The translations under genes were made by a program, and so were the position numbers. Shown in pieces: positions 6,078 through 25,671 of a stretch of DNA of 26,942 nucleotides; the stretch's first letter is position 1; the number at the start of each line of letters is the position of its first letter. The stretch is from Spirochaetales bacterium (GTDB taxonomy: Bacteria > Spirochaetota > Spirochaetia > JABEVK01), in assembly GCA_037142615.1 (NCBI GenBank), contig JBAXAI010000047.1, positions 1-26,942 of the forward strand, given 5' to 3'. Under the pieces are notes generated by a model, which saw only the letters and a list, made by a program, of their open reading frames with translations, had not been told where the DNA came from and searched no databases.

Positions 6078-6196
6078 CGGCCCTCCCGATCCTTCTGTGC
6101 CTAGGCCGAACGGATGGCAACGGAACTTCCGCGCTGAGCTTGAGTATACGGGGTCCAGGGGGTGGACGTTTCTAACGAGTGTCGATTGATGTTGCG

Positions 6197-6225
6197 TTGA
6201 CCCCTTTTGCCGGGGGAAGTATGAA
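6197..6225 (+). promoter_or_regulatory. Putative sigma70 promoter for the dehydrogenase operon
   Basis: TTGACC (6197-6202), 17 bp, TATGAA (6220-6225), upstream of the ATG at 6245. Confidence 0.4.
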
Positions 6226-6244
6226 AAGCAAGGGGGTCACAGAC

Positions 6245-7225: not shown

Positions 7226-7238
7226 CAGGAGGAACAGC

Positions 7239-7997: not shown

Positions 7998-8023
7998 GTA
8001 TAAACTATTGCCCCAAGGGGTCA

Positions 8024-8701: not shown

Positions 8702-8787
8702 GTCAACGGTAGCTCGACGGACATTTCTATTGGGCTTACGGTAGCGGCCTTGTTGAGTCGCCCTGTGGCAATGAGTATTGTGTCCAT

Positions 8788-10762: not shown

Positions 10763-10772
10763 GGAGACACTT

Positions 10773-11843
10773 GTGGCCTTCCAAGTAATTGTTCCCCGCA
10801 TCGGTTGGTCGATGGAAAAGGGAGTCTTCTCCGAATGGCTGAAGCACGAAGGGGAGTTTGTCAACCAAGGGGACGCCGTGTTCTCGATCGAGGCTGACAA
10901 GGCCGTCGAGGAAGTGCTTTCCGAGGACGCCGGAACCCTCTCTATTCTCGCCGGGGTGGCCCTTCCGGGGACCGAGCTTCTCGTCGGTACGGTGATCGGC
11001 TTTCTGCTCGAGGCCGGCGAGGCCCCTCCCGTCACCGCGCCCGCGACGCCCCGACCAGCAACCCTCCCGGCGCAAACGATTCCAGTCTCAAAGCAAGCAC
11101 CCGACCCCAAGGCCTCCCAAGCCGCCGAAGCGAGGCAGACGGGGGTCGTTGCCAGCCCCAGGGCCCGGCGGGTAAGCCGTGAACTCTCGGTCGACTGGCG
11201 GCGTCTGACCCCTACCGGAACTGGGGGGAGAGTCCGTGAACGCGATGTCCTCCGGTCAGCAACGCTCGGAGGTGTGGGTCGAAACCGAGGCTCCGGGCTG
11301 GTTTCGCTTCTGCGGGTGAGGGCCGACGCCACACAACTGGTGGCCCTCCTCGACCGGTTGGCCGATTCCGCGTACGTGTCGAGCGTCAGCGACCACTACG
11401 AAGCAATCCTCGTCAAGCTTGCCGCACGGGCGTACCTGAGAAACACCTCGGGTGTGGCGGCCAGTTGCCTCGCCGTTGGGATGATTTCCAGCGAGGGCCT
11501 GGGATATCGTTCGCTTCGCGGCGCCGAGACGCACAGCGTCAGCGAACTGGCGGCGCTGAGTCAGGGGCCGGTGGGCCTCGAAGACACGTTGTCGGGAGAC
11601 GAAGCGTTCACTTCGCTCAGTCTGGACTCTCTGGGGCTGGACGAGTATCTGCCCGAGTACGACGTGCCTGGCGGCCAACTGCTCTTATTCGGGCGTTTGG
11701 CGCGAAGTTCGACGCGCGGCGAGGGCGCCAGTATCGCTTTGGCTTTGTCCTTCCAGGAGGCCGAGGTCAGCCTCAGCCGAGCCGCTAAGTTCCTCGAAGA
11801 CGTAAGAATCGCCGTAGAAGATCCCTTTGTCTTCTTGGCGTAA
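10773..11843 (+). CDS. E2-like protein: lipoyl domain, E1/E3-binding domain and a degenerate acyltransferase domain
   Basis: IEADKAVEEV (lipoyl Lys); ASPRARR...GTGGRVRERDV (PSBD); C-terminus LALSFQEAEVSLSRAAKFL where LSFDHRVxDGxxAAxFL is expected. GTG start after GAGGAG. Confidence 0.8.
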   Translation: MAFQVIVPRIGWSMEKGVFSEWLKHEGEFVNQGDAVFSIEADKAVEEVLSEDAGTLSILAGVALPGTELLVGTVIGFLLEAGEAPPVTAPATPRPATLPAQTIPVSKQAPDPKASQAAEARQTGVVASPRARRVSRELSVDWRRLTPTGTGGRVRERDVLRSATLGGVGRNRGSGLVSLLRVRADATQLVALLDRLADSAYVSSVSDHYEAILVKLAARAYLRNTSGVAASCLAVGMISSEGLGYRSLRGAETHSVSELAALSQGPVGLEDTLSGDEAFTSLSLDSLGLDEYLPEYDVPGGQLLLFGRLARSSTRGEGASIALALSFQEAEVSLSRAAKFLEDVRIAVEDPFVFLA

Positions 11844-11855
11844 GGGAGAGACACG

Positions 11856-12941
11856 ATGGGTAAGTTCCACATCAAGTTCACGGGTGACTACTGCGGCACG
11901 GACGGCAAGCCCAATATGGACATGGCCCTGGATCTTCTGGAACCGCGGCCCGAGGTCAGTTGGGGTTTCCTCGAGGATCAATGTCCTCGCCCCGGTGACG
12001 CCGGCTACCAGGACAAACTCTACTCTCTGAGCCTTACCCCCGAGCATGTCGCGAGCGCCGATGCCATTGTCGTCTTGAGGCCTTGGGTCCAGGCCCCGGC
12101 GTTTGCCCAAGGAGCAGGTCGGCTGATCGCGATCGGCCGGTCAGGCATCGGCTACGACAAGTTCGACCTGTCGGCCTGTACCGAAAACGACGTGCTGGTC
12201 TTCAATTCGCCCTTCGGCCTCACGCACTCCACGGCCTCGTCTGCGCTGATCTTCATCCTCATGCTGGCGAGAAAGCTGCCGCTCCTGCAGAGAATGGTGC
12301 GCGATTACCGCTGGGACCTGCAAAAGGACGCCATCGGCACGGAACTGGCCGGAAAGGTTCTGGGCATCGTCGGTTTTGGCCAAACGGCTCGAGAGTTGGT
12401 GAGGCTGCTGGCTCCTTTTGGCATGATCGTGAAGGCCTACTCACCGCACGCCGACCCGGCGCAGGCCCGCGAGCTCGGGGTGACTCTGGTCGACGAATTG
12501 CACCCCTTGCTGCGTGAGTCAGACTTCGTGAGTCTGCATACCCGACTAGACGCCAACAATCACCGCAGTTTCGGAGAACGCGAGTTTGCGTGCATGAAGC
12601 CGTCGGCCTTTCTGATCAACATCGCCCGAGGGGAACTTGTCGACGAAGAGGTGATGATTCACTACCTGAGGGAACACCGCATCGCCGGAGCCGGGCTCGA
12701 CGTTTTTGAGACCGAGCCCTTACCGCTTTCCAGCCCCCTGTTGCAGTTGGACAACGTGGTTCTGACGCCCCACTGGTTAGCCACGACCCGGGAAGCCGGC
12801 CGCGCCACGATCGTACCGATCATCCAAGGCCTCTTGGGCCTCACGCAAGGAATCGTCCCGGGTCAGGTGTTGAACCCGGCTGTTTTGAACCGCAAAGGCT
12901 TTCTCGAGAAACTCGCGCGCTGGAAAGGAGCTGCAAAATGA
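11856..12941 (+). CDS. D-isomer-specific 2-hydroxyacid dehydrogenase
   Basis: RSGIGYD, GIVGFGQTA, DFVSLH, NIARG, DVFETEP, LTPHW. Confidence 0.88.
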   Translation: MGKFHIKFTGDYCGTDGKPNMDMALDLLEPRPEVSWGFLEDQCPRPGDAGYQDKLYSLSLTPEHVASADAIVVLRPWVQAPAFAQGAGRLIAIGRSGIGYDKFDLSACTENDVLVFNSPFGLTHSTASSALIFILMLARKLPLLQRMVRDYRWDLQKDAIGTELAGKVLGIVGFGQTARELVRLLAPFGMIVKAYSPHADPAQARELGVTLVDELHPLLRESDFVSLHTRLDANNHRSFGEREFACMKPSAFLINIARGELVDEEVMIHYLREHRIAGAGLDVFETEPLPLSSPLLQLDNVVLTPHWLATTREAGRATIVPIIQGLLGLTQGIVPGQVLNPAVLNRKGFLEKLARWKGAAK

Positions 12942-13750
12942 GAATCATCCGCTACCTCGACCCTCAGGGGAGAGTCAACTACGGGTCGCAACAAGCTGAC
13001 GGCAGCGCCCACAGGCTCGAGGGGGAGCTCTTCCATACCCTTAAGGACACTGGGCAGAAGGCCGAGGTCGCAACCCTCCTGGCGCCTATCAAGCCTAGCG
13101 CCTTGTTGTGCGTGGGCCTCAATTATCGAACCCACGCCAAGGAAGTCGGAGCCGCCGTTCCCGCGTTTCCCATTCTCTTTATCAAGAGCCCGGGGGCCCT
13201 GCAGAACCCCGGTGGTCCCATCGAATTGCCGCGCTTTTTGAAGAGCGACGAAGTTGACTATGAAGGCGAAATGGCGGTGGTGATAGGAAAGACCTGCAAA
13301 AACGTGTCGCGCGCGAAGGCGCTGGACTACGTGCTCGGGTACACCTGCGCCAACGACGTCAGCGCCCGGGAATGGCAGACGCAGTTCGGCGGCACCCAGT
13401 GGTGCCGGGGCAAATCGTTCGACACGTTTTGTCCGCTCGGACCGTGGCTCGTCACCACCGACGAAGTCCCTGATCCCCAAACTTTGCGGATCCGGACGGT
13501 CATCAACGGACAAGTCCTTCAGGATTCCAACACGAGCGACATGATCTTCGACGTGGCCTCGCTGATCGAGTTTCTGAGCGGCAGCACCACCCTCGAGGCG
13601 GGGACCGTCATCCTCACCGGAACTCCCCAAGGCGTCGGAGCGGCCCGGACCCCGAAACGGTGGCTTGTTCCCGGCGATTCAGTTTCTGTCGAAATCGAAA
13701 GACTCGGCGTCCTGACCAATCCCGTTGTCGAGGAAAGGGCCAGGCCATGA
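12938..13750 (+). CDS. Fumarylacetoacetate hydrolase (FAH) family protein
   Basis: CVGLNYRTH, DYEGE, NDVSAR, GKSFDTFCPLGP, ILTGTP.GVG. Confidence 0.93.
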   Translation: MRIIRYLDPQGRVNYGSQQADGSAHRLEGELFHTLKDTGQKAEVATLLAPIKPSALLCVGLNYRTHAKEVGAAVPAFPILFIKSPGALQNPGGPIELPRFLKSDEVDYEGEMAVVIGKTCKNVSRAKALDYVLGYTCANDVSAREWQTQFGGTQWCRGKSFDTFCPLGPWLVTTDEVPDPQTLRIRTVINGQVLQDSNTSDMIFDVASLIEFLSGSTTLEAGTVILTGTPQGVGAARTPKRWLVPGDSVSVEIERLGVLTNPVVEERARP

Positions 13751-14955
13751 AAATCACCCGGATCGAAACCATTTGGTGCGACGAATTGCTGCCAACCTGC
13801 TGGGTACAAATCCATACCGACGACGGCTTGGTGGGGCTGGGGGAAACCTACTACATCCCGAGGGCCGTGAGCGCGGTGATCCACGATATGTTCGCCAAGG
13901 TACTTCTGGGCCGCAACCCGCTCGACATTGAGAACCACTGGCAAAACATGTTTTCGATGGCCAATTTCTTCGGTTTCGCCGGCTCGGAGATGCGGGCCAT
14001 CAGCGCCATCGACCTGGCCCTGTGGGACCTCCTTGGCCAGCACACCGGGCAGCCGATCTACAACCTGCTCGGTGGCCGCAGCCGTGACCAGATCAAGATC
14101 TACAATACCTGCGTGGGCCATGGCCGGCATCAGGACTACTTGGCGTGGGCCGAAGGCCACACCGGCGAGCTCGCCCGTGACTTGCTCGCTTCGGGCATCA
14201 CCGCCATGAAGATCTGGCCCTTCGACCAGTTTGGCGTTTCCTTGGCAGGCCCGTCGGGGGCCTCGGGGCCGCGCGCTTCGGGAACCTCGGGAGCCAACGC
14301 CATGGGGCCGGTGAGCCACTACTTGAGCAAGGATGATCTCAAGAAAGGCCTTTCCTACGTGGAAGACATCCGCAAGGCCGTGGGCGACAAGATGGAGATC
14401 GCCATCGAGGGCCATGCCCGCTGGAACCTGCCGTGCGCGGTGACCATCGCCCAGGCGTTGGAACCCTACGACATCCTGTGGCTCGAAGAGATCTTGCCGC
14501 CCGACAACGTCGAGAGCTACGTGCGCCTCAAGGCCCAAACAAAGGTCAAACTGTGCGTCAGCGAGCGGCTGTTTACCCGCTTTGGCTTCCGCCAGGTGGT
14601 CGAGCAGAACGCCGCTGACGTGATCATGCCCGACATGGCCTGGACCGGCGGACTCAGCGAGACCCGAAAGATCTGTGCCTTGGCCGATACTTACTATCTG
14701 CCGGTCACGAGCCACGACTGCATCGGTCCCGTCGCCCTGTGGTCGGCAGCCCATCTGATGCTCCACGCTCCTAACGCCATGATTGTCGAGACGGTGCGCG
14801 CCTACTACGACGGTTGGTACAACGACATCGTCACCGACAGGATTCCGATTCAGGGCGGGATGATCTCGCTCGAGGGAAAACCAGGCCTGGGTACCTCGCT
14901 GCGTCCCGAAGTCTTTCAGCGCAAGGACGTGCACGTCGAGGTGTCGTCCCTGTAG
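13747..14955 (+). CDS. Mandelate racemase / muconate lactonising enzyme family protein (probable sugar-acid dehydratase)
   Basis: GLGET, AISAIDLALWDL, LLGG, AMKIWPF, IEGH, WLEE, SERL, IMPD, SHDC; ATGA overlap with the FAH gene. Confidence 0.9.
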   Translation: MKITRIETIWCDELLPTCWVQIHTDDGLVGLGETYYIPRAVSAVIHDMFAKVLLGRNPLDIENHWQNMFSMANFFGFAGSEMRAISAIDLALWDLLGQHTGQPIYNLLGGRSRDQIKIYNTCVGHGRHQDYLAWAEGHTGELARDLLASGITAMKIWPFDQFGVSLAGPSGASGPRASGTSGANAMGPVSHYLSKDDLKKGLSYVEDIRKAVGDKMEIAIEGHARWNLPCAVTIAQALEPYDILWLEEILPPDNVESYVRLKAQTKVKLCVSERLFTRFGFRQVVEQNAADVIMPDMAWTGGLSETRKICALADTYYLPVTSHDCIGPVALWSAAHLMLHAPNAMIVETVRAYYDGWYNDIVTDRIPIQGGMISLEGKPGLGTSLRPEVFQRKDVHVEVSSL

Positions 14956-14975
14956 CCACTGTCAAGGAGCCCCCG

Positions 14976-15815
14976 ATGCCATCAAGTCTGAGAATGAAAG
15001 ACAAGCGCGTCCTCGTCACCGGGGCGGGGACAGGCATCGGCCGGGAGATCGCCTTGGAGTTTGCCCGAGAAGGCGCTGACGTGGTCCTCCACTACTCTCA
15101 CAGCAGCGCGGGGGCCAGTTCCGCGAAGGCCCAGATTGAGGCGATGGGGGTCAGGGCCTCAACGTTCCAGGCGAACCTTGGTTCGGTTGGGGAGTGCCGG
15201 AGCTTGGCTCTGGCAGCGGTCGAGTTTCTCGGCGGCCTGGACGTCTTGGTGAACAATGCCGGTATCACCGCCAACCTGCCTTTTGAACAGGTGACCCCCG
15301 AGCAGTTTGACACCCTTTACCACGTCAACGTGCGCGGACAGTTCTTTGTCACGCAGACGGCCCTGCCCGCCTTGCTGGCAAGCCGAGGCAACGTCATCAA
15401 CCTCACTTCTATCCACGCTTTCGAGGCCTTCCCCGAGCACTCGGTCTACGCCGGGACAAAGGGGGCCATCGTGTCGTATACGAGGGAACTCGCCATCGAG
15501 TTGGCCCCGCGGGGAGTCAGGGTCAACGCGATCGCACCGGGGGCGGTGCCGGTCGACAACCACTTTGTGTCCACTCCGGGGGTCGACATCGCGCGCGAAA
15601 TCGCCGAGGGGGACAAGCTGATTCCGATCGGCTTTCAGGGGGCCCCGCTCGACATTGCTCGCATCGCGGTCTTTCTGGCCAGTGAGGACGCGCGGTTCAT
15701 CGTCGGCCAAACCCTGATCGCCGATGGAGGCACCACGTCGTGGATGCCCTTCGGGGAGGGCTTTCGCCACGGTCCCGGCAAGCAGTTCGGTCAGGGGTAC
15801 GTGCCGGGGATCTAA
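14976..15815 (+). CDS. SDR-family oxidoreductase
   Basis: TGAGTGIG, NNAG, YAGTK, NAIAPG; RBS AAGGAG. Confidence 0.92.
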   Translation: MPSSLRMKDKRVLVTGAGTGIGREIALEFAREGADVVLHYSHSSAGASSAKAQIEAMGVRASTFQANLGSVGECRSLALAAVEFLGGLDVLVNNAGITANLPFEQVTPEQFDTLYHVNVRGQFFVTQTALPALLASRGNVINLTSIHAFEAFPEHSVYAGTKGAIVSYTRELAIELAPRGVRVNAIAPGAVPVDNHFVSTPGVDIAREIAEGDKLIPIGFQGAPLDIARIAVFLASEDARFIVGQTLIADGGTTSWMPFGEGFRHGPGKQFGQGYVPGI

Positions 15816-17071
15816 AGGGGCCGTACCGGCAGGCCCGTCTGAGCCTCGATCTCCAGCAGGCGGTTGTACTTGGCAAGCCTTTCGGACTGCCTGATCGACC
15901 CCACCTTCAGGTAATCTGCCCCCCAACCCACCGCCAGATCGGCCAGCCAGTCGTCCTCGGTCTCGCCACTGCGGGCGCTGACCGTGATGCTCCAGCCGGC
16001 CGAACGCGCTAGGTGCAGGGCCTCGCAGGCCTCGGTGACCGTACCGATCTGGTTCACCTTGAGCAGCAGCGCGCTGGCGGCCTTGGTGTCGATGGCCTTC
16101 TGGATGCGGGCGACCTTGGTGCACAGCAGGTCGTCGCCCATCACCAGGATGTCGGAGGCGACTTCGCGGCGGAACTGGCTCCAGTGAAGCCAGTCTTCCT
16201 GCGCGAGGGGGTCTTCGATGCTGAGGATGGGGAAGTCCTCGAGCCAGGTCTGAAGACGGCGCACCATGGCCGGTCCGTCGAGGGTCTGCCCATCCAGATG
16301 ATACAGGTTGTCGCGGTAGAACTGGCTGGAGGCGACATCGACGGCCAGAGCCACGTCCTTGCCGGGCTCGAGGCCAGCGGCGCGGATGGCGAGCACGGCC
16401 TCGTCGAGCATGGCCCGCGAACTGGCAAACGGCGGCGCCAACCCGCCCTCGTCGGCCTTCAGTTCCCTCATGCCGTAGTGCTCCAGGGTCAGTTCGGCCG
16501 CCGACCGGTACACGGCCGCCGTCATCTCCAGGGACGCGCCGATGGTGGCCGCCTGGGGCACCATCAGAACATCCTGAATGGCCACCTGGCCGCCGGCATG
16601 GAGGCCACCGCTGAACAGGTTGACCGTGAGGCGGGGCAAGGAATCGGGCTTTCTGCCGGCGACCAGGGCAAAGTAGCCGTAGAGGGGTATCGCCTGCTCC
16701 GCAGCAGCCGCGCGGGCAAAGGCGAGCGACACCGCGAGCAGCGCGTTGGCCCCCAGGCGGCTCTTGTCGGCGGTTCCATCCAGACCGACCAAAGCAGCGT
16801 CCAGGTCCTGCTGGCTGGCGAAGGATCGGTTGGCAAGGGCCCTGTTGAGCTCGTTGTTGACGTGCCCGACGGCCTTGAGGCAACCCAGGCCGTGATAGCG
16901 CTTTTCGTCACCGTCGCGAAGCTCCCTCGCTTCGGCGGCGCCTGTGGACGCCCCCGAGGGCACCGACGCGGTGCCTCTGGCTCCTGAGGCCAGCACGCAG
17001 GTGGCTTTCAGGGTGGGGCGGCCCCGGCTATCCAAGATTTCCAGCGCACACAGACTCGTGACTACGGGCAT
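15812..17071 (-). CDS. eno: Enolase paralog (phosphopyruvate hydratase-like) with atypical active-site residues
   Basis: EILDSRGRPT, VPSGASTG, LGANA, DEGG, IEDP, GDDL, LLKVNQIG, SARSGETED, SERLAKYN; RBS AGGAGG lies inside the upstream gene. Confidence 0.85.
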   Translation of the reverse strand: MPVVTSLCALEILDSRGRPTLKATCVLASGARGTASVPSGASTGAAEARELRDGDEKRYHGLGCLKAVGHVNNELNRALANRSFASQQDLDAALVGLDGTADKSRLGANALLAVSLAFARAAAAEQAIPLYGYFALVAGRKPDSLPRLTVNLFSGGLHAGGQVAIQDVLMVPQAATIGASLEMTAAVYRSAAELTLEHYGMRELKADEGGLAPPFASSRAMLDEAVLAIRAAGLEPGKDVALAVDVASSQFYRDNLYHLDGQTLDGPAMVRRLQTWLEDFPILSIEDPLAQEDWLHWSQFRREVASDILVMGDDLLCTKVARIQKAIDTKAASALLLKVNQIGTVTEACEALHLARSAGWSITVSARSGETEDDWLADLAVGWGADYLKVGSIRQSERLAKYNRLLEIEAQTGLPVRPL

Positions 17072-19344
17072 TCGGCTATCCTCCTGACAAACACTTCAAC
17101 GAGCTCGGGGACCGTGACGGGGGGCGCCTGCAGCAGTCCAAGAACCACCTTAAGCTGACGTTCGCCCTCGTGGGGGCTCAAGTATTCCAAGGGAGACTTC
17201 CCGCAGACCCGCGCCAGAAGACAAGCCAGAGTGTGCCTCACCGCTCTGGCTTCTAGGCCGCGAAACCACGCCGGCTGGCCCACTTCCTGCAGGTAGGCAC
17301 GCCAGAAGGTCGCCGCCGCTTCCGCGAACGCGGAGCGCAACCCAACCAGATGGTTGGCCTTGCTCAGCAGGTGCGTCAACGCGAACCCGAGATCGAAGGC
17401 CGGATCACCAAAGTGCATCACTTCGTGGTCGAGCAAGACCAGGCGGTTCTGGTAGACCAGCGCGTTTTTGGGGCTGTAGTCGCCGTGGGTCAGCGCCACG
17501 GTGGTGGCGCGGGTCTCTTGCACCAGCGCGCTCAGGAACTCCCTGGCCGCCGCGCAAGTCTGGGCCGAATAGAGGTAGTAGGCCTCCACGCGCAAGGTTT
17601 CGAAGTAGGAGCGGTCGGCGAACTCGGCGGCCAAGAGGGGCGCCTGTTGCCCGGGCGCGCGCTCCAGTTGGGCCAGGAGAGTCCCGTGCTGGCGCACCAG
17701 GTCGAGGTCGAGCTCGCCGGCCAGAAGCAGGGTCTTCCAGTTCTGGTGGGGCTCGGGAACGGCCTCCATCGCCAGCACATCGACCGAACGATCCTCCAAC
17801 ACGAGCTTGGGGACGCTCCCCTGCGGTAGCAATTGTCCCAGCCATTTCAGGCCGAGAGCTTCCTGATGGATGCGTTTGGGGTCGCTGAACCAATCGGACT
17901 TCACTCGGAGCTTCCCCAGGGCCTGCTTGATCACCCAGGCCTCGCCGCCCGGTCGCCCGAGCCAAACGGTCCGGTTGGATACCCCACCGGCCAACACCCG
18001 CATTTTGAGCGTTTCGTCGGGGTCCACGAGGCGCTTGTCCTGCAGGTAGGCCCTCAGCGACGCGGGGTCCTCGATATCGAGGGCGAGATAGCCGATGGTT
18101 TGGGGCCCCTCCGGGAGGACGCAGACCCTGAGGTCAGGCTTTGCCAGGCGCAGCCTGGCGAGCAGGGCCAACGGGTCCCCGCAGGGTTGGTAGAGCGCCT
18201 CGGTGATCTGCTCGGGCGAGAGACCCACGGAATGGACGAAGACGTCTTGCTTGAGCAAGATTTGGCACTGAATCTGCACGGCCCATTGATCGGGTTCGGA
18301 AAAGTCTGGCTGGGCCAGCAGTTCCAAGGCTCTCGTCGGTGAGCCTGCCTTTGCCAGCAGCTTGGCGTAGCCCCCATGGTCGGGAAGACCATCCTCGCAG
18401 CCAGCGCACAGGAGGATGGTGCCTCCGTCGCGGACGACCCGGCTGGCGGCGCTGATGCCCTTGATCGTCTGGTAAAGGTTTTGGTCGAGCGGGTAGCCCC
18501 CGTTGGTGGTGATCGCGACGTCGTAGGGCTGGTCGACCTTCAGCATGGCGCTGCTGCGCACGAACTCGCAGCCCGCCTGGTGCGCGGCGAGCATGTCGCC
18601 GGCAAAGACGCCGGTAATCTGCTTGAGAGCGTTCATGGTCACGTTCACCAGAAAGGTTGGCTTGACCCTCAGGGCGACTTCACAGATCTCCTCCCACAAG
18701 GGGTTGCCCCGGGTGACCCCCCAGGTGGCCAGCGGATGCCCGATCATGGCAAAACTGTGGTTCGTCTGCACGCTCTCGGCACCGGCCAGAGCCGGGAGAA
18801 CGGCCTTCGGTCCGCCGCTAAACCCCGCGAAAAAGTGGGGTTCGATGAAACCGGTCAGGATTCGAACGTCCGATTCCAGCAGAAGGCGGTTGACCCTCAC
18901 GGGGTTGCCCAAGCTCGTGGTTCCCAAGGAAACCAGCCGTGCATCGTCGTTGCCATCGTGTTGTTCGCAGCGGTATCTATCGACCACGGCATCGCCAAGC
19001 ATCTTCCGCAGTTCGGCCTGAGTCTGCGGACGGTGGGTTCCCAAGCCATTGAGGAGCACGATGTCCTGACGGTGCACGCCCGCCGCCTCCAGTTCTTCCA
19101 GAATGACCGGTAGCAATCGTTCATTCGGGGTGGCACGGGTAATGTCGCTGTGGACGAGCACAACTTTGTCGCCCGGCTTGGCGAGCATGCGCAGGGGTGG
19201 TGAGCCAATCGGCTCCCGAAGGGCTTGGACGAGCGAAGCGCGCTCGTCGCTCAGGCCGGCGACGGGGGCGCACCTGAGAATGTCGGTTCCCTCGGGAAGG
19301 TCCAGCTTCAGGCCCTCCCTACCGTAGGGCAGGTTGATCGTCAT
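17062..19344 (-). CDS. larA: LarA-family nickel-pincer racemase/epimerase fused to an APH/MtnK-like phosphotransferase
   Basis: Residues ~1-420: SDITR, GTHR, EPHFFAGFSGGPK, NHS, YQTIKG, DQW, LPEGP. Residues ~421-760: GGVSN, VIKQA, HGDYSPKN, LLDHE, GDPAFDLG. Confidence 0.88.
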   Translation of the reverse strand: MTINLPYGREGLKLDLPEGTDILRCAPVAGLSDERASLVQALREPIGSPPLRMLAKPGDKVVLVHSDITRATPNERLLPVILEELEAAGVHRQDIVLLNGLGTHRPQTQAELRKMLGDAVVDRYRCEQHDGNDDARLVSLGTTSLGNPVRVNRLLLESDVRILTGFIEPHFFAGFSGGPKAVLPALAGAESVQTNHSFAMIGHPLATWGVTRGNPLWEEICEVALRVKPTFLVNVTMNALKQITGVFAGDMLAAHQAGCEFVRSSAMLKVDQPYDVAITTNGGYPLDQNLYQTIKGISAASRVVRDGGTILLCAGCEDGLPDHGGYAKLLAKAGSPTRALELLAQPDFSEPDQWAVQIQCQILLKQDVFVHSVGLSPEQITEALYQPCGDPLALLARLRLAKPDLRVCVLPEGPQTIGYLALDIEDPASLRAYLQDKRLVDPDETLKMRVLAGGVSNRTVWLGRPGGEAWVIKQALGKLRVKSDWFSDPKRIHQEALGLKWLGQLLPQGSVPKLVLEDRSVDVLAMEAVPEPHQNWKTLLLAGELDLDLVRQHGTLLAQLERAPGQQAPLLAAEFADRSYFETLRVEAYYLYSAQTCAAAREFLSALVQETRATTVALTHGDYSPKNALVYQNRLVLLDHEVMHFGDPAFDLGFALTHLLSKANHLVGLRSAFAEAAATFWRAYLQEVGQPAWFRGLEARAVRHTLACLLARVCGKSPLEYLSPHEGERQLKVVLGLLQAPPVTVPELVEVFVRRIAECP

Positions 19345-19421
19345 CGTCGCCTCCGCTCGCGGTCAAGGGTGGGGCACACGGACGAGCGCTGTCAAGGCGA
19401 AAACGGGCCCGAAAGACGATT

Positions 19422-19501: not shown

Positions 19502-20455
19502 ATGAAGACGCTGAAACTCGGGGGAACCGGAGGCACCGTGAGCGCCTTGTGCTTGGGAACCATGGACTTCGGAGTCAAGACCGAACCGCGTCAGGCCGAG
19601 GCGCTTCTCGACCGCTACTGCGAGGCCGGAGGCACCTTTCTGGATACGGCAAACAACTACGGACGCTGGACCGACGGGGGCGGCCGGGAATCGGAAACCG
19701 TCCTCGGCGAATGGATGCGTACCCGAAAGAACCGGAACAGCCTGTTCCTCGCGACCAAGGTGGGCGCGAACCCTCCGGCAAGGGGCTGGAGCTTGAAGCC
19801 GCAGTTGATCCGGGAGGAACTCGAAGAAAGCCTGCGCCGGTTGGGAACCGACCACGTCGATCTCTACTACGCCCACATCGACGTGCGGGAAGACCCGCTG
19901 GAAGAGACCCTTGGCGTCTTCGACCAGTTGCACCGGGAAGGAAAGTTCCTTGCACTGGGGTGCAGTAACTACCGCGCTTGGCGCATCGAACAGGCGCGGC
20001 AGCTCAGCAAGGACCGGGGCTTCCCCGCCTACTGCTGTGCCCAGTTGCGCCACACCTACTTGCGGCCGGTGCCGGGCGCCTCGTTCCGGCCACAGGTGTT
20101 CATCGACGAGGAAACCAGGGACTATGCGCGCGCGAACAAGGACTTTCTTTTGCTTGGCTATTCCATCGCTCTGGGCGGGGCCTACGCTTCGAGGCCGGAG
20201 AAGCCAGTGCCTTTGGCGTACCGCGGACCGGATACCGACGACCGGCTGAGGGTGCTCGCCGAGGTCTCGCGGGAAACGGGGGCTTCCGCGGTCCAGGTTG
20301 TCCTGGCCTGGATGCTCGCCTCAGCTCCGACCGTCCTTCCGCTGATCAGCTCAAGCACCCTGCAACAGTTGGACGAAAACCTAGGGTCGCTCGAAGTGGT
20401 CCTGAGTTCCGAACAGATGGTGCGGCTTGACCAGGCGGGCGCTAGGGCTTGTTGA
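19502..20455 (+). CDS. Aldo/keto reductase
   Basis: LCLGTMDFG, FLDTANNY, LATKVG, SLRRLGTDHVDLYYAH, LGCSN, QLDENL; RBS GGAGG. Confidence 0.93.
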   Translation: MKTLKLGGTGGTVSALCLGTMDFGVKTEPRQAEALLDRYCEAGGTFLDTANNYGRWTDGGGRESETVLGEWMRTRKNRNSLFLATKVGANPPARGWSLKPQLIREELEESLRRLGTDHVDLYYAHIDVREDPLEETLGVFDQLHREGKFLALGCSNYRAWRIEQARQLSKDRGFPAYCCAQLRHTYLRPVPGASFRPQVFIDEETRDYARANKDFLLLGYSIALGGAYASRPEKPVPLAYRGPDTDDRLRVLAEVSRETGASAVQVVLAWMLASAPTVLPLISSSTLQQLDENLGSLEVVLSSEQMVRLDQAGARAC

Positions 20456-21410
20456 CGGCGTTTCTCGGCGGCTTGCCGGTCAACACGTCGGCGACCCCTT
20501 GAGCCGCTTTGGTCTGCAGTTCCACTTGTGCCTCTTCCGAGTACCAGCCGGTGTGGTCCGACAAGACCACATTGTCCAAGCCAAACAGAGAGTAGTTTGG
20601 GGGCACCGGCTCGGTCTCGTGCACATCCAGCCCCGCGCTGTTGAGGTGTCCGTTTTTGAGGGCTTCGTACAGGGCTTGGGTGTCGACCAAACCACCCCGG
20701 CTGGTGTTGATGAAGATCGCTCCCGGTTTCATTTTGGCAAAGGCGGCTGCGTTGAACAAGTGCCGGGTTTTTTCGCCCAAAGGCACGTGGCACGAGAGGA
20801 AATCGGACCGGGAAAGAAGGTCGCCAAAGTCAACTTTCTCCCCGCCTGCCTCGCGGATAACCTCTTCTGGTACAAAGGGATCGTACACGAGAACCCTCTT
20901 CAGGTCGAAGCCCTTGAGCTTGCGGTGCAACACCTTGGGAATGCTGCCGTACCCCGCCAAGCCAAACACCTTTCCGGCGATGCGGAACATCGGGTCTTTG
21001 GTGCCGATGTTCCACTGCCCTGACCTCACTTGGCGGTCGCGAAGCGAGGTCTTTCGAACGCAGGCCATCAACAGGGCAAAGGCCTGGTCGGAGACGTCTT
21101 CGAGGCAGTAGTCGGGCACGTTGAGTACGAAGATGCCCTTCCGCGCGGCCGCTTGGATGTCGACATTGTCGAACCCGACGCCGTAGCGGGCAATCACCTT
21201 GCAGCGCGCAAGCCCCGAGATGGTCTCGGCCGACAGCGGGGCAAGGTTGACCAGAATCGCATCGGCGTCGCCACACAGAGCCAGAATTTCTCCGGGAGAC
21301 GACGCCCCGGAGCCCTCGATCACTTCTGCCCCGATGGCCTCGAGCACCCGCCGTTCGTAGCCATGGCTCGCGTAGCGGTCCTCAAGCAAAACGACTTTGT
21401 AGTTTGACAT
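20442..21410 (-). CDS. D-isomer-specific 2-hydroxyacid dehydrogenase (CtBP-like)
   Basis: RYGVGFDNVD, NVPDYC, NTSRG, DVHETEP, SDHTGWYSE; true start MSNYK at 21410 after AGGAGG. Confidence 0.9.
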   Translation of the reverse strand: MSNYKVVLLEDRYASHGYERRVLEAIGAEVIEGSGASSPGEILALCGDADAILVNLAPLSAETISGLARCKVIARYGVGFDNVDIQAAARKGIFVLNVPDYCLEDVSDQAFALLMACVRKTSLRDRQVRSGQWNIGTKDPMFRIAGKVFGLAGYGSIPKVLHRKLKGFDLKRVLVYDPFVPEEVIREAGGEKVDFGDLLSRSDFLSCHVPLGEKTRHLFNAAAFAKMKPGAIFINTSRGGLVDTQALYEALKNGHLNSAGLDVHETEPVPPNYSLFGLDNVVLSDHTGWYSEEAQVELQTKAAQGVADVLTGKPPRNAVNKP

Positions 21411-21418
21411 GGATCCTC

Positions 21419-22201
21419 CTAGGGCTTCACAACCGCGCGGGTCGCACCGGTCGACATGCCCCCGTCGACGAGCAGAGTCTGTCCGGTGACATACGTGCTG
21501 GCATCTGACGCGAGAAACAAGAGCGCGCCCTCGAGTTCCTCGGTCTTTCCTGGCCGTTTCAGCGGCAGCCGGTCGTTCAAATAGGCAAGCCACTCGGGGT
21601 TTTCGTACAACGCCGCCGTCTGGTCGGTCTTGAACCAACCGGGAGCCAAGCAGTTGACGGTGATTCCGTGAGCACCCCACTCGTCGGCCAGGCTCATGGT
21701 CAACTGTTTCATTCCGCCCCGGCTGGCGCAGTAAGGGCCGATGCCGGCGTAGCCGAACACCGCAGTCAGCGAGCCGATGTTGATGACGCGCCCGTACCCC
21801 CGGGAAAGCATCCCGGGAACCAGCGCCTGGGCCACGAAGAAGGCCCCCCGCAGGTTGGTGTCGAGCACGCGGTTCCAGTCGTCCCACGTGACCTCGAGGG
21901 CCGGTTTGCGCACGTTGCACCCGGCGTTGTTGACCAGAATATCGACGTTGGCGGACGAGGAAACGTTCCGGGCCAAGGCGTCGATACTCGCCTTCTCGGT
22001 CACTTCGAGAGGCAGCGGGAGCGCGGTGCGGCCGAGCTCCCGGATTTCGGCCACAACGCCCTCAAGCGCCTCGACGTTCCGGGCCGTCACCACCAGGTCG
22101 GCCCCGGCGCGGGCCAGAGTCAAGGCAAAGTGGCGGCCCAAACCTCGGCTGGCGCCGGTGACCAGGGCCGTGCGACCGTGCAAATCAAACGGTGGGTTCA
22201 T
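21419..22201 (-). CDS. SDR-family oxidoreductase (gluconate 5-dehydrogenase / KduD-like)
   Basis: FDLHGRTALVTGASRGLG, NNAG, YCASR, NCLAPGWFKT. Confidence 0.88.
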   Translation of the reverse strand: MNPPFDLHGRTALVTGASRGLGRHFALTLARAGADLVVTARNVEALEGVVAEIRELGRTALPLPLEVTEKASIDALARNVSSSANVDILVNNAGCNVRKPALEVTWDDWNRVLDTNLRGAFFVAQALVPGMLSRGYGRVINIGSLTAVFGYAGIGPYCASRGGMKQLTMSLADEWGAHGITVNCLAPGWFKTDQTAALYENPEWLAYLNDRLPLKRPGKTEELEGALLFLASDASTYVTGQTLLVDGGMSTGATRAVVKP

Positions 22202-22712
22202 GACGTACCCCTGGAGTGCGACCATCGCTGCCCAACACCGGTTGAAGGATCTCGATGATGAAGCCGACCGCCTTCTCGGTGTCGTAGTTGACCCAGTAGG
22301 AACCCTCGCGGATGCCGGCACCCTCTTGGGTAGGACCCATTCCCTTGTCAACAAGGTAGGTCGTGAGCGCTTGATGGTCGGGAACGTTGAACCTCAAGTG
22401 GTGGAGGCCCGGGCCCTTCTGCTCGAGAAAATCCGACCAAATGCTCTTGCCGTCGACGGGCTGGATCAACTCGAGCTCGATACTGCCAAGGTCAGCAAAA
22501 GCTTGCCTGGTATGAAAATGAGCCGGCTCGCCGAAGTACAGTTGCTGCTGGGCTCGCTCGGGCGGGGGACAGTCCACCACGCGGAAAGGACCAATGCCGA
22601 ACACCGAGGTGAGGGTCTCCATGCTTTGTTCCAGATTGGCGACGACCACCCCTAGTTGAATAGCGGTCCGAAAAGGCCTGGTAAGTGAGTTCGAAGAGGC
22701 AGGCAGTTCCAT
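22185..22712 (-). CDS. VOC-superfamily protein (methylmalonyl-CoA epimerase / glyoxalase-like)
   Basis: QLGVVVANLE, IELELIQP..SIWSDFLEQKGPGLHHL, GFIIEI. Confidence 0.85.
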   Translation of the reverse strand: MELPASSNSLTRPFRTAIQLGVVVANLEQSMETLTSVFGIGPFRVVDCPPPERAQQQLYFGEPAHFHTRQAFADLGSIELELIQPVDGKSIWSDFLEQKGPGLHHLRFNVPDHQALTTYLVDKGMGPTQEGAGIREGSYWVNYDTEKAVGFIIEILQPVLGSDGRTPGVRHEPTV

Positions 22713-22807
22713 GGTTCTCCTCCAAGTACGGCCACTTGGACGGCCGCAAACTCAGGTTAGGGGCGAAAAGGCAGCTCTGTCTACGGCCGGACCCACGAAA
22801 AGAAAAA

Positions 22808-22839
22808 TTGTTGACAGTTAACAAATAGGGGTTTAGCAT
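22808..22839 (+). promoter_or_regulatory. Sigma70 promoter for the ABC operon with a palindromic operator over the -35 element
   Basis: TTGACA (22811-22816), 17 bp, TAGCAT (22834-22839); palindrome TTGTTGACAGTTAACAA at 22808-22824. Confidence 0.7.
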
Positions 22840-22983
22840 TCCGAATCGCCGGCCAGACACGATGGAGGAGGCATCGCCAGCGCTGAGATACTGCCGCAAA
22901 TCACGGGAAGACCCGTGGTTTTCGTCTAGAAGGGTTCGATGGGGCAAGTCTCCATCGTGAGTTTTCCATAGCAAAAGGAGATT

Positions 22984-24612: not shown

Positions 24613-24627
24613 TTCCCGCTAGGGGTT

Positions 24628-24663
24628 CTGGCGCGCGCCGGTAACGACGCGCGCCAGTTTTTT
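24628..24663 (+). terminator. GC-rich stem-loop plus T-tract between the SBP and permease genes
   Basis: ctggcgcgcg (24628-24637) pairs with cgcgcgccag (24648-24657), followed by tttttt. Confidence 0.75.
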
Positions 24664-24691
24664 CCAGTCGAGAGTTCCGACGGAGGTTGGT

Positions 24692-25657: not shown

Positions 25658-25671
25658 ACAAGGTGGCTACC

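What the first reader, a model, noticed from the sequence alone, without database searches (positions are those of the whole stretch)
15812..19344. Candidate undescribed module: LarA racemase-kinase fusion coupled to a remodelled enolase
Seen: two minus-strand genes overlap by 10 bp with an internal AGGAGG RBS, and together they encode a LarA domain, an APH/MtnK-like kinase and an enolase paralog. Known: LarA enzymes invert C2 of 2-hydroxy acids, and enolase dehydrates 2-phospho-D-glycerate. Inference: the three activities could act in sequence, first setting the C2 configuration, then phosphorylating the 2-OH, then eliminating the 3-OH to give a phosphoenol-2-ketoacid. The substrate could be L-glycerate or, given the enolase substitutions, a C3-substituted acid such as threonate, erythronate or 2,3-dihydroxybutyrate. 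I know of no described pathway with this combination.
Basis: partly seen in the sequence, partly recalled or inferred. Interest (0 to 1): 0.85.

Follow-up and report, generated by a model that had tools for sequence, protein, structure and literature searches.

The report
Kinase plus dedicated enolase paralogue module
Two overlapping genes encode a lactate-racemase-like domain freshly fused to a small-molecule kinase, followed by a second, remodelled enolase; the kinase-enolase pair turns out to be a widespread, apparently undescribed two-step module that probably turns glycerate (or a close relative) into phosphoenolpyruvate.

Summary
The gene at 17062-19344(-) encodes LarA fused to an APH/MtnK-like kinase. 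The gene at 15812-17071(-) encodes an enolase paralogue (Eno2). They overlap by 10 bp, with AGGAGG 8 nt upstream of the second start.

The core finding is the kinase-Eno2 pair, not LarA. Of 76 assessable kinase loci from several phyla, 69 carry Eno2 directly downstream. Five of five tested genomes with an unlinked kinase still hold an Eno2-type enolase. Many proteins fuse the two, and two fuse Eno2 to a D-2-hydroxyacid dehydrogenase.

All 65 Eno2 sequences keep the enolase metal, base, acid and phosphate residues. All 65 carry Glu168->Asp and His373->Ala/Val. A canonical enolase is also present in every genome tested.

LarA linkage is rare (2 of 80 loci, plus the window). The fusion is very young: relatives 92-93% identical have two separate genes. 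LarB, LarC and LarE were not found in this genome.

Context is sugar-acid dehydratase + SDR + FAH hydrolase ("Route III") or 2-HADH. It points to D-glycerate -> 2-phosphoglycerate -> PEP, with LarA supplying D- from L-glycerate.

The strict pairing and the altered pocket leave room for another 2,3-dihydroxy acid. Four literature searches found no description of the pair.

The parts
17062..19344 (-). LarA-kinase fusion gene (760 aa)
   Evidence: ORF. Pfam Lar_N, LarA_C and APH. NCBIfam LarA 461.2 bits against cut-off 460. The exact protein is on 2 contigs of public assemblies. The junction is bridged in runs X2 and X3.
18082..19344 (-). LarA (nickel-pincer 2-hydroxyacid racemase) domain, aa 1-421
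   Evidence: Best solved relatives are broad-spectrum LarA 9eid (258.8 bits) and L. plantarum LarA (243 bits). H104, H170, K180 and H196 align with LarA H108, H174, K184 and H200. The D/R and YQxxK motifs are kept. The T359-equivalent residue is Ala.
17062..18081 (-). APH-fold, MtnK-like small-molecule kinase domain, aa 422-760
   Evidence: PF01636 53.5 bits. MtnK TIGR01767 scores only 32.6 against 275. The only solved-structure hit is 2pyw, E 5e-5. Family size is 566 clusters (50% identity) at E<=1e-30. Invariant motifs are GGVSN, KQAL..LRV, HGDxSPKN and LLDHEV.
17080..17085 (-). AGGAGG ribosome-binding site inside the end of the fusion gene, 8 nt before the enolase ATG
   Evidence: Sequence read directly.
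17062..17071 (-). 10-bp overlap ATGCCCGTAG (enolase start codon to fusion-gene stop codon): translational coupling
   Evidence: In 57 of 69 other loci the computed distance from the kinase stop to the enolase start is 30 nt or less (44 computed as overlaps). Six large negative values among them are alignment artefacts that mask short gaps or overlaps.
15812..17071 (-). Eno2: enolase paralogue with Asp167 (canonical Glu) and Ala366 (canonical His)
   Evidence: Enolase_N plus Enolase_C. TIGR01060 412.7 bits, against 700.6 for the genome's canonical enolase. Clade signature and retained catalytic residues.
11856..15815 (+). Convergent neighbour operon: 2-HADH (11856-12941), FAH-family hydrolase (12938-13750), MR/MLE sugar-acid dehydratase (13747-14955) and SDR (14976-15815). 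This is the probable source of the 2-hydroxy acid.
   Evidence: Pfam. NCBIfam: the FAH protein's best hit is 2,4-didehydro-3-deoxy-L-rhamnonate hydrolase, 211.5 bits (below cut-off 500). The MR/MLE protein's best hit is galactonate dehydratase, 229 bits (below cut-off 311).
7532..11843 (+). Same-strand upstream genes: GntR/FCD regulator, E1 alpha, E1 beta and a lipoyl/E3-binding protein. Their membership in the pathway is uncertain.
   Evidence: Pfam and NCBIfam.
19502..26583 (.). Other flank: aldo-keto reductase (19502-20455 +), 2-HADH (20442-21440 -), SDR (21419-22204 -), VOC/glyoxalase (22185-22712 -), a 542-aa ORF without a family hit (22984-24612 +) and two ABC permeases (24692-26583 +). 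This is a probable sugar uptake and oxidation context.
   Evidence: Pfam and NCBIfam.

Best explanation
The core is a conserved two-enzyme module. An MtnK-like APH-fold kinase phosphorylates the 2-hydroxyl of a D-2,3-dihydroxy acid, most likely D-glycerate. A dedicated enolase paralogue (Eno2) then removes the C2 proton and the C3 hydroxyl to give the enol phosphate, most likely PEP. The two genes are translationally coupled. The acid is supplied in one of two ways. The first is a non-phosphorylative 'Route III' sugar-acid pathway: dehydratase, SDR 4-dehydrogenase, then FAH hydrolase, giving pyruvate plus a 2-hydroxy acid. The second is a D-2-hydroxyacid dehydrogenase reducing the 2-oxo acid (hydroxypyruvate). 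In the window's lineage a LAR-group LarA sits directly upstream. A short spacer was recently lost, which fused LarA in frame to the kinase. Its expected job is to turn the L-isomer (L-glycerate from an L-configured sugar acid made by the convergent operon) into the D-isomer that the kinase takes. Shown: gene structure, domain content, conserved linkage, fusions, residue conservation, gene contexts and the youth of the fusion. Inferred: substrate identity, position of phosphorylation, direction, and whether LarA is active.
For: (1) Linkage. Of the other 76, 69 carry an Eno2 homologue (53-69% identity) downstream on the same strand. All 5 of the 7 exceptions that I tested hold an Eno2-type (SARSGET) enolase elsewhere in the genome. 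(2) Fusions. Of the 120 long enolase-domain proteins listed, 67 carry the kinase motif. Of the 57 of these with a readable SxRSGETED motif, 56 have Ala, 1 has Gly and 0 have His. All 43 proteins with His lack the kinase motif. Examples with names given by the source are from Marinomonas sp. and Vibrio halioticoli. Two Eno2-type enolases are fused to a D-2-hydroxyacid dehydrogenase (P0063, P0084). (3) Eno2 is catalytically complete. The equivalents of S39, H159, Q167, E211, D246, E295, D320, K345, R374, S375 and K396 are invariant in 65 of 65 sequences. This predicts a 2-phospho-carboxylate substrate. (4) Context. Among 130 immediate neighbours of 65 pairs, the only recurrent enzymes are SDR (10) and 2-HADH (5-6). 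Within 7 kb, SDR occurs in 16 loci, and FAH, 2-HADH and GH36 in 7 each. In a Truepera locus the order is FAH-kinase-Eno2-SDR-galactonate dehydratase (504 bits, over cut-off)-SDR. Acidobacteriaceae loci combine an L-arabinonate-type dehydratase (878.3 bits against cut-off 882), GH36, FAH (411.6 bits to the diketo-rhamnonate hydrolase model), SDR, kinase and Eno2. In such a route a hexonate would give pyruvate plus glycerate. The kinase family member is the only kinase I recognised among the annotated genes of these clusters; not every ORF there was annotated. (5) Route III (dehydrogenase plus FAH hydrolase giving pyruvate plus glycolate or lactate) is established biochemistry (PMC6336799, passages read). 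(6) LAR-group LarAs racemise glycerate, and one of them prefers it (PMC11770544, passages read). The window's LarA domain is in that group and keeps all the catalytic residues that I aligned. LarA lies next to the pair in two other phyla (L019 and L082, 52% identical to the window's domain).
Against: (a) All 5 pair-bearing genomes tested, the window's included, already hold a classical glycerate kinase (MOFRL in 4, Gly_kinase in 1). All 11 tested also hold a canonical enolase. A glycerate-to-PEP module would therefore be doubly redundant. (b) The near-obligate pairing, the fusions, and the invariant Glu168->Asp and His373->Ala/Val changes beside the leaving-group site (65 of 65) suggest an intermediate that the housekeeping enolase does not handle. 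(c) LarB (33.8 bits against cut-off 175), LarC (no match with two models) and LarE (30.2 bits against 150) were not found in this 96.7%-complete genome. LarC was found in 0 of 5 genomes of the genus, against 10 of 31 relatives overall. The LarA domain may therefore lack its cofactor. (d) LarA is near the pair in only 2 of 80 loci, and relatives 92-93% identical have separate genes. (e) A hexose version of Route III that yields glycerate is my inference. 'Glycerate' does not occur in the main text of PMC6336799. (f) The window's dehydratase and hydrolase score below their family cut-offs, so the sugar is unknown. A 6-deoxy sugar would give lactate, which an enolase cannot dehydrate.
Confidence: 0.45

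Rival explanations
1. The mechanism is the same (2-O-phosphorylation, then enolase-type beta-elimination) but the substrate is a different acid. It would be a small 2,3-dihydroxy acid with a substituent at C3, or an otherwise non-glycerate acid: erythronate/threonate, 2,3-dihydroxybutyrate, tartrate or 2,3-dihydroxyisovalerate. The product is then a PEP homologue, and the pair acts as an ATP-driven dehydratase. LarA would epimerise C2.
For: Glu168->Asp and His373->Ala/Val are invariant in 65 of 65 Eno2 sequences, and in the distant fused forms, while every other catalytic residue is kept. By recalled enolase structural work, both residues flank the C3-OH, and both changes make room there. Classical glycerate kinase and canonical enolase co-exist with the pair in all genomes tested. 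The pair is almost never separated. LAR-group LarAs also epimerise 2,3-dihydroxybutyrates, though weakly (PMC11770544).
Against: No recurrent neighbour points to a C4 acid. The sugar-acid contexts (galactonate dehydratase, FAH, SDR, GH36) predict a C3 product from hexonates. Two small substitutions open little space. I could not inspect coordinates, so the 'room at C3' argument rests on recalled structures.
Confidence: 0.28
2. LarA here is simply a lactate racemase serving the neighbouring deoxy-sugar pathway: L-lactate from the FAH hydrolase becomes D-lactate, which a D-2-hydroxyacid dehydrogenase oxidises to pyruvate. Its fusion to the kinase is an accident of a spacer deletion in an operon, with no coupling of substrates.
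For: NCBIfam puts the domain at the lactate-racemase cut-off (461.2 against 460). Route III on 6-deoxyhexoses yields lactate (PMC6336799). Two D-2-HADH genes flank the locus. The fusion is very young. LarA is absent from 78 of 80 kinase loci.
Against: LarA lies next to the kinase-Eno2 pair in three separate lineages. In L019 it is the third gene on the same strand. These LarAs are closer to each other (52%) than to the LarA hits found in the window's own class (36-40% by the search; about 34-35% for three of them realigned). In relatives 92-93% identical, LarA directly precedes the kinase as well.
Confidence: 0.2
3. The LarA domain is inactive baggage in this organism. The module was acquired recently, the host cannot make the nickel-pincer cofactor, and only the kinase-Eno2 part works.
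For: LarB, LarC and LarE were not found. LarC was found in 0 of 5 genomes of the genus. None of 30 relatives has the kinase or the fusion. In one public assembly the ORF is split inside LarA: 255 aa plus 499 aa on a 17.5-kb contig.
Against: All the catalytic and cofactor-binding residues that I aligned are intact. The same intact ORF is seen in assemblies from three studies. The genome is a 76-contig draft. Other genomes of the class also have LarA hits without a LarC hit (G012, G024, G028, G030). An unknown cofactor source is therefore possible.
Confidence: 0.2
4. Eno2 is only a spare glycolytic enolase. The kinase has an unrelated role, such as antibiotic or sugar phosphorylation, or it regulates the enolase as a protein kinase.
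For: TIGR01060 scores Eno2 above its cut-off. Public sources name the fusions 'enolase' or 'phosphopyruvate hydratase'. APH-fold proteins include antibiotic kinases (weak APH(3') hit, 23.6 bits).
Against: Linkage, co-occurrence and fusion are too consistent for unrelated functions. The enolase signature tracks the kinase without exception (0 of 57 fused forms have His373). The contexts are catabolic.
Confidence: 0.05

Closest known systems
Canonical enolase (phosphopyruvate hydratase, EC 4.2.1.11; TIGR01060)
   Same: Two-domain architecture. Score above the family cut-off. Metal ligands, Lys base, Glu acid, and the phosphate- and carboxylate-binding residues are all kept.
   Different: It is a separate paralogue clade: 37.8-50.7% identity to canonical enolases, against 52.6-96.6% within the clade. 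It always sits beside a canonical copy. It carries invariant Glu168->Asp and His373->Ala/Val plus about 30 other clade-specific positions. It is genetically tied to a kinase.
LarA lactate racemase and LAR-group LarA homologues, including the glycerate-preferring LarAH43 (PMC11770544; PMC7583248)
   Same: Lar_N plus LarA_C domains. The score is at the LarA cut-off. The two catalytic His, the Lys tether, the Ni-binding His and the substrate-binding YQxxK are kept.
   Different: It is fused to a kinase. In my search of kinase-region homologues, no other fusion of this kind was found apart from the window's own cluster. The position equivalent to T359/Q359 is Ala. No larBCE was found in the genome.
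5-Methylthioribose kinase MtnK (TIGR01767; solved structure 2pyw)
   Same: APH/protein-kinase-like fold. Shared KQAL...R and HGD motifs. MtnK is the nearest named family, and some sources label homologues 'MTR kinase'.
   Different: It scores 32.6 bits against a cut-off of 275. The partner is a true enolase, not the MtnA/MtnB/MtnW enzymes. No methionine-salvage family is among the 25 most frequent families of 130 neighbours.
Hydroxypyruvate reductase -> glycerate 2-kinase -> enolase segment of the serine cycle and glycerate pathways, with the three known glycerate kinase classes (PMC2063504, search listing and abstract only)
   Same: It is the same proposed chemistry and order. 2-HADH, kinase and enolase are adjacent or fused.
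   Different: The kinase is from an unrelated fold (APH, not Gly_kinase or MOFRL). The enolase is a dedicated, altered paralogue. Classical glycerate kinases are present as well.
Non-phosphorylative 'Route III' sugar-acid pathway (KDx 4-dehydrogenase plus FAH-family diketo-hydrolase; PMC6336799, PMC11199699)
   Same: Dehydratase, SDR and FAH genes lie next to the pair in the window, in Truepera and in Acidobacteriaceae.
   Different: The described routes end in glycolate or lactate. A kinase-plus-enolase extension that converts a glycerate product to PEP is not described there.
Enolase homologue PhpH of phosphinothricin biosynthesis (recalled from memory; not checked in any call)
   Same: It is a precedent for an enolase-family paralogue acting on a glycerate derivative other than 2-PG.
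   Different: It belongs to a different pathway, has no kinase partner, and was not compared here.

Membership tests
Enolase (TIGR01060 / PF03952 + PF00113) | Enolase_N plus Enolase_C domains and an HMM score over the curated cut-off | tested here: met
   245.9 and 157.8 bits. 412.7 bits against cut-off 300.
Enolase (TIGR01060 / PF03952 + PF00113) | Metal ligands (S39, D246, E295, D320), base K345, acid E211, and phosphate/carboxylate binders (H159, R374, S375, Q167, K396). Yeast numbering is recalled. | tested here: met
   All are present in the window protein and invariant in 65 of 65 clade members.
Enolase (TIGR01060 / PF03952 + PF00113) | Glu168 and His373 of the C3-OH/water site | tested here: not met
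   Asp in 65 of 65. Ala in 48 and Val in 17 of 65. All 6 canonical controls have Glu and His.
Enolase (TIGR01060 / PF03952 + PF00113) | Dehydration of 2-phospho-D-glycerate to PEP | not testable with these tools
   Needs an enzyme assay.
LarA, NPN-dependent lactate racemase (NF033504) | Lar_N plus LarA_C domains and a score over the equivalog cut-off | tested here: met
   219.2 and 91.2 bits. 461.2 bits against cut-off 460, so only marginally met.
LarA, NPN-dependent lactate racemase (NF033504) | Catalytic His108/His174, Lys184 tether and His200 Ni ligand | tested here: met
   H104, H170, K180 and H196 align with them.
LarA, NPN-dependent lactate racemase (NF033504) | Cofactor supply by LarB, LarC and LarE in the same genome | tested here: not met
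   LarB 33.8 bits against 175. LarC no match with TIGR00299 or PF01969. LarE 30.2 bits against 150. Genome 96.7% complete. LarC found in 0 of 5 genomes of the genus.
LarA, NPN-dependent lactate racemase (NF033504) | Racemisation of lactate (or glycerate) | not testable with these tools
   Needs NPN-loaded protein and chiral analysis.
MtnK, 5-methylthioribose kinase (TIGR01767) | Score over the equivalog cut-off | tested here: not met
   32.6 bits against 275, covering the N-lobe only.
APH phosphotransferase family (PF01636) | Domain score over the gathering threshold, with the Lys and HGD...N/D motifs | tested here: met
   53.5 bits against 23.2. Invariant K44, H191-G-D193, N198 and D210 in the family alignment.
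Glycerate kinase classes I/II (PF02595; PF05161 MOFRL) | Homology to either family | tested here: not met
   No such Pfam hit on the fusion protein. A separate MOFRL gene exists elsewhere in the genome. 'Works like a glycerate 2-kinase' is a hypothesis only.

The most novel reading that the evidence does not exclude
Eno2 is not a 2-phosphoglycerate enolase. It would be the first functionally divergent branch inside the enolase family proper. Together with its obligate MtnK-like kinase it would form an ATP-driven dehydratase for another 2,3-dihydroxy acid and yield a PEP homologue (an enol phosphate that could pay the ATP back). In some lineages LarA or a D-2-hydroxyacid dehydrogenase would set the C2 configuration.
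Probability: 0.3. Interest if true: 0.8.

Novelty: new variant of a known kind. Interest (0 to 1): 0.62.

Why it matters
As I recall the field's view, the enolase family proper is treated as isofunctional, and public sources label these paralogues and fusions 'enolase'. Here a distinct clade has an invariant two-residue change at the leaving-group site. It is tied to a kinase of no known function by adjacency, co-occurrence and fusion across Acidobacteriota, Chloroflexota, Planctomycetota, Verrucomicrobiota, Deinococcota, Actinomycetota and some Gammaproteobacteria. If the substrate is glycerate, this is a fourth, unrelated kind of glycerate kinase. It would also be the missing end of a hexose 'Route III' pathway common in soil and freshwater bacteria. 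If the substrate is not glycerate, this is new enolase chemistry. Either way, hundreds of gene pairs are probably mis-annotated or under-annotated. The window's variant adds a natural LarA-kinase fusion in a genome with no visible cofactor pathway. That raises the question of how orphan LarA proteins get their nickel-pincer cofactor.

Tried and rejected

'Missing glycerate kinase' argument: rejected. All 5 pair-bearing genomes tested have a classical glycerate kinase.

Sulfolactate route (2-phosphosulfolactate -> PEP + sulfite): considered because of the changed leaving-group site and an IlvD/Edd dehydratase in some clusters. No sulfite or sulfonate family is among the 25 most frequent families of 130 immediate neighbours. 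The retained acid catalyst also fits a hydroxyl leaving group. Dropped.

Methionine salvage: the MtnK score is far below cut-off. The review PMC6302742 (passages read) mentions no true-enolase partner. Dropped.

2-Phospholactate/F420 idea: an enolase cannot dehydrate it, and I recalled that most host phyla lack F420. Not tested and dropped.

Mis-binned contig: C47 has GC 0.608, the same as the genome, and tetranucleotide correlation 0.981 (rank 19 of 60 contigs of 10 kb or more). There is no sign of mis-binning.

Sequencing-error fusion: the other two frames at the junction do not encode the relatives' LarA tail. Independent contigs bridge the junction. Rejected.

Method slips. The first ORF clustering chose the longest ORFs and included antisense ORFs (component 2), so I redid the neighbour calls with a codon-position GC score. 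Six large negative 'gaps' were artefacts of alignments that ran through the stop codon, not fusions. In one search the L082 LarA ORF was picked in the wrong frame (20.9%), so for L082 I rely on the tblastn value of 52%. The 'IQx' pattern hit the wrong place in some sequences and is not used.

Not interpreted:
- Two joints (skips of 389 and 296 nt) and the loose ends come from short contigs under 90-95% likeness, probably from other organisms.
- Run X7 covers only 21 of 30 bins.
- The RNA library X16 gave one 264-nt contig over 19086-19349. That is a weak hint of transcription at most, because DNA can be present in such libraries.
- An FGGY-kinase/APH-kinase fusion (P0215) and MobA-like/APH fusions (P0278, P0022, P0023) at 37-41% identity are too distant to read.

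Atlas search returned only 'phosphotransferase family protein'.

Literature. Searches found nothing on a kinase-enolase pair or on an APH-fold glycerate kinase. This covers only the held library. Table S1 of PMC7583248 (gene contexts of LarA groups) may mention kinase neighbours, and I could not see it.

Not run: structure prediction, fold search and complex prediction. I make no claim that the proteins bind each other.

Full report
WHAT IS THERE. Two minus-strand ORFs, 17062..19344 (760 aa) and 15812..17071 (419 aa), overlap by the 10 bases ATGCCCGTAG. An AGGAGG sits at 17085-17080, 8 nt before the second start codon. The first protein has Lar_N (aa 7-209), LarA_C (aa 272-413) and an APH phosphotransferase domain (aa 448-685). 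The second has Enolase_N plus Enolase_C. NCBIfam places the N-terminal half at the lactate-racemase cut-off (461.2 against 460). The kinase resembles methylthioribose kinase only faintly (32.6 against 275). The enolase scores above the enolase cut-off (412.7 against 300). The genome (4.27 Mb, 76 contigs, 96.7% complete) has a canonical enolase elsewhere at 700.6 bits, so this copy is a divergent paralogue, called Eno2 here. The contig matches the genome in composition.

THE CORE IS A KINASE-ENOLASE PAIR. I aligned kinase-domain homologues and scanned one genome per prokaryotic species. They come from Acidobacteriota, Chloroflexota, Planctomycetota, Verrucomicrobiota, Trueperaceae, SAR324, Actinomycetota and others.
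- Four of the 80 end too soon after the kinase to judge.
- Of the remaining 76, 69 carry an Eno2 homologue (53-69% identical) downstream on the same strand, and 7 do not.
- In 57 of the 69 the computed distance from kinase stop to enolase start is 30 nt or less. Six large negative values are alignment artefacts.
- I tested 5 of the 7 exceptions. All 5 genomes hold an Eno2-type enolase with the SARSGET motif elsewhere, besides a canonical enolase.
- In an evenly drawn sample of 121 genomes of one acidobacterial order, the kinase part matched in only 4 genomes. Each match lies directly beside an enolase-family gene (8 unpublished genomes in that sample showed only enolase-part matches and carry no claim here). 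The module is therefore patchy, as accessory genes are.
- By exhaustive search the kinase family has 566 clusters (50% identity) at E<=1e-30.

FUSIONS. The first homologue search already showed kinase-enolase fusions. A search for long proteins with the Eno2 query listed 120 proteins (268 reached E<=1e-30).
- 67 of the 120 carry the kinase motif.
- Of the 57 of these with a readable SxRSGETED motif, 56 have Ala and 1 has Gly. None has His.
- All 43 proteins with His lack the kinase motif.
- Fusions occur in cultured Gammaproteobacteria: Marinomonas sp. and Vibrio halioticoli, as named by the sources.
- Two Eno2-type enolases are fused to a D-isomer-specific 2-hydroxyacid dehydrogenase, one in each domain order.
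These are three independent 'Rosetta stone' links among 2-HADH, kinase and Eno2.

THE ENOLASE IS COMPLETE BUT ALTERED. I compared 65 Eno2 sequences with 6 canonical enolases from the same or similar genomes.
- The equivalents of S39, H159, Q167, E211, D246, E295, D320, K345, R374, S375 and K396 (yeast numbering, recalled) are invariant in 65 of 65.
- Glu168 is Asp in 65 of 65.
- His373 is Ala in 48 and Val in 17.
- Other clade marks include NGG->SGG (65 of 65) and GDEGG->ADEGG (65 of 65).
- Identity is 52.6-96.6% within Eno2 and 37.8-50.7% between Eno2 and canonical enolases. The ranges do not overlap.
- All 11 pair-bearing genomes tested (own, five, five) hold one canonical enolase plus one Eno2.
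The retained metal, phosphate, carboxylate, base and acid residues predict a 2-phospho-carboxylate substrate that loses its C2 proton and a C3 leaving group. By recalled structural work, the two changed residues flank the C3 hydroxyl.

CONTEXT. Apart from the pair itself, neighbourhoods vary.
- Among 130 immediate neighbours of 65 pairs, the only recurrent enzymes are SDR (10) and D-2-HADH (5-6). Wzy_C (6) belongs to one related group of loci.
- Within 7 kb, SDR occurs in 16 loci, and FAH hydrolase, 2-HADH and GH36 glycosidase in 7 each.
- 2-HADH lies directly upstream of the kinase in several Chloroflexota and SAR324 loci.
- A Truepera locus reads FAH-kinase-Eno2-SDR-galactonate dehydratase (504 bits, over cut-off 311)-SDR.
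- Acidobacteriaceae loci combine an L-arabinonate-type IlvD/Edd dehydratase (878.3 against 882), GH36 enzymes, an FAH protein close to 2,4-didehydro-3-deoxy-L-rhamnonate hydrolase (411.6 against 500), SDR, kinase and Eno2.
- The window has the same set on the convergent strand: 2-HADH, FAH (211.5 bits to the same hydrolase model), an MR/MLE dehydratase (229 bits to galactonate dehydratase, below cut-off) and SDR. A GntR regulator and E1/lipoyl genes precede them. On the other side lie an aldo-keto reductase, 2-HADH, SDR, a VOC protein and ABC permeases.
Dehydratase + SDR 4-dehydrogenase + FAH hydrolase is the published non-phosphorylative 'Route III'. It splits 2-keto-3-deoxy acids into pyruvate plus glycolate (pentoses) or lactate (6-deoxyhexoses) (PMC6336799, passages read). 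By the same chemistry a hexonate would give pyruvate plus glycerate. That step is my inference and is not in that paper. Glycerate is the one such product that a kinase and an enolase can carry on to PEP. A 2-HADH partner fits hydroxypyruvate -> D-glycerate.

LarA. The domain keeps both catalytic histidines, the lysine tether, the nickel-binding histidine and the substrate-binding motifs. Its best solved relatives are lactate racemases, including a broad-spectrum one. Published LAR-group enzymes racemise glycerate, and one prefers it (PMC11770544, passages read). The window has Ala where that enzyme has Gln, so no preference can be read from that residue.
- LarA lies near the pair in only 2 of 80 loci. 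In L019 it is the third gene on the same strand. In L082 it is on the opposite strand. Both are 52% identical to the window's domain.
- No other LarA-kinase fusion appeared among 29 kinase-region homologues of fused length. Only the 8000 candidates sharing most words were scored.
- The fusion is very young. Cluster members 92-93% identical have a 426-aa LarA ending just after the junction and a separate 343-aa kinase, both reported from a 3642-nt contig. The window's other frames do not encode that LarA tail, so a short spacer has been lost.
- The fused form is real. A 3953-nt contig (2 differences, no gaps) and a 1037-nt contig (0 differences) from two other studies of freshwater metagenomes bridge the junction.
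- LarB, LarC and LarE were not found in the genome. LarC was found in 0 of 5 genomes of the genus and in 10 of 31 relatives. One of the two other LarA-linked genomes has LarC.
- None of 30 relatives has the kinase or the fusion, so the module is a recent arrival in this lineage.

MOST LIKELY MECHANISM (confidence about 0.45). The kinase puts phosphate on the 2-OH of D-glycerate, and Eno2 dehydrates 2-phosphoglycerate to PEP. Glycerate comes from a hexose Route III pathway or from hydroxypyruvate reduction. In this lineage LarA converts L-glycerate, from an L-configured sugar acid, to the D form.

Against this reading: all 5 pair-bearing genomes tested already have a classical glycerate kinase, and all have a canonical enolase. 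The strict coupling and the invariant pocket changes hint that the intermediate is not ordinary 2-PG. The main rival (about 0.28) keeps the mechanism but changes the acid to a C4 or branched 2,3-dihydroxy acid, giving a PEP homologue. Other rivals concern LarA only. It may be a plain lactate racemase for a deoxy-sugar route (about 0.2), or an inactive passenger without its cofactor (about 0.2). These rivals are not mutually exclusive with the main reading of the pair.

NOVELTY. Four full-text searches, the LarA papers and a methionine-salvage review gave no description of a kinase-enolase pair, an APH-fold glycerate kinase, or a functionally distinct enolase clade of this kind. Sources that name these proteins call them 'enolase', 'phosphopyruvate hydratase', 'MTR kinase' or 'phosphotransferase'. 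I rate it a new variant of known kinds: known enzyme families in an undescribed, widely conserved combination with a diagnostic active-site signature.

Noticed in passing
window 8788-11843 (+): E1 alpha, E1 beta and a 363-aa protein with lipoyl and E3-binding domains, but no acyltransferase catalytic-domain hit. They sit in the same gene string as the 2-HADH/FAH/dehydratase/SDR genes. This may be an acetoin- or pyruvate-dehydrogenase-like unit attached to a sugar-acid operon.
   Followed up: partly
G000:C33:22810-23643 (own genome, outside the window): A second, distant LarA homologue (29% identical over aa 50-314, open frame 415 aa). It is shared with the genus and family. The genus shows no LarC in 0 of 5 genomes, while sister genus g2 has it in 3 of 4. 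LarA homologues without a visible cofactor pathway also occur in G012, G024, G028 and G030.
   Followed up: partly
proteins P0032 and P0035 (public assembly, 17.5-kb contig; equivalent to window 17062-19344): In one assembly, 100% identical in protein, the fusion ORF is called as two pieces: aa 1-255, and aa 262 to the end. The break lies inside the LarA domain. This is either an assembly error or a broken LarA in part of the population.
   Followed up: no
G115:C38:10469-12684 and G120:C39:12873-15055: A second, more distant kinase-enolase pair type (kinase 35-36%, enolase 44% identical to the fusion P0011). It resembles the fused forms P0024 and P0027 and also carries the QD/SARS signature, so the coupling predates the split of the two subfamilies.
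   Followed up: partly
proteins P0063 and P0084: Eno2-type enolases fused to a D-2-hydroxyacid dehydrogenase, once at the C-terminus and once at the N-terminus.
   Followed up: partly
protein P0215 (730 aa): An FGGY carbohydrate kinase fused to a member of this APH kinase family (41% identical). Two kinases in one chain; unexplained.
   Followed up: no
window 22984-24612 (+) and 6101-7345 (-): ORFs of 542 aa and 414 aa with no Pfam hit; the 542-aa one also had no NCBIfam hit. The first precedes two ABC permease genes and may be an unrecognised solute-binding protein.
   Followed up: no
L078:5836-6939: In one Chloroflexota locus the MR/MLE gene just upstream of the kinase scores as cis-3-hydroxy-L-proline dehydratase (622 bits, over cut-off 500), not as a sugar-acid dehydratase. 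This context does not fit the glycerate story.
   Followed up: no
window 17000-19400 in public runs: Near-identical DNA is held by freshwater and lake-water metagenome assemblies. The three DNA runs I laid come from three studies, of 2018, 2020 and 2025. One metatranscriptome contig covers the 5' end of the fusion gene (19086-19349).
   Followed up: partly
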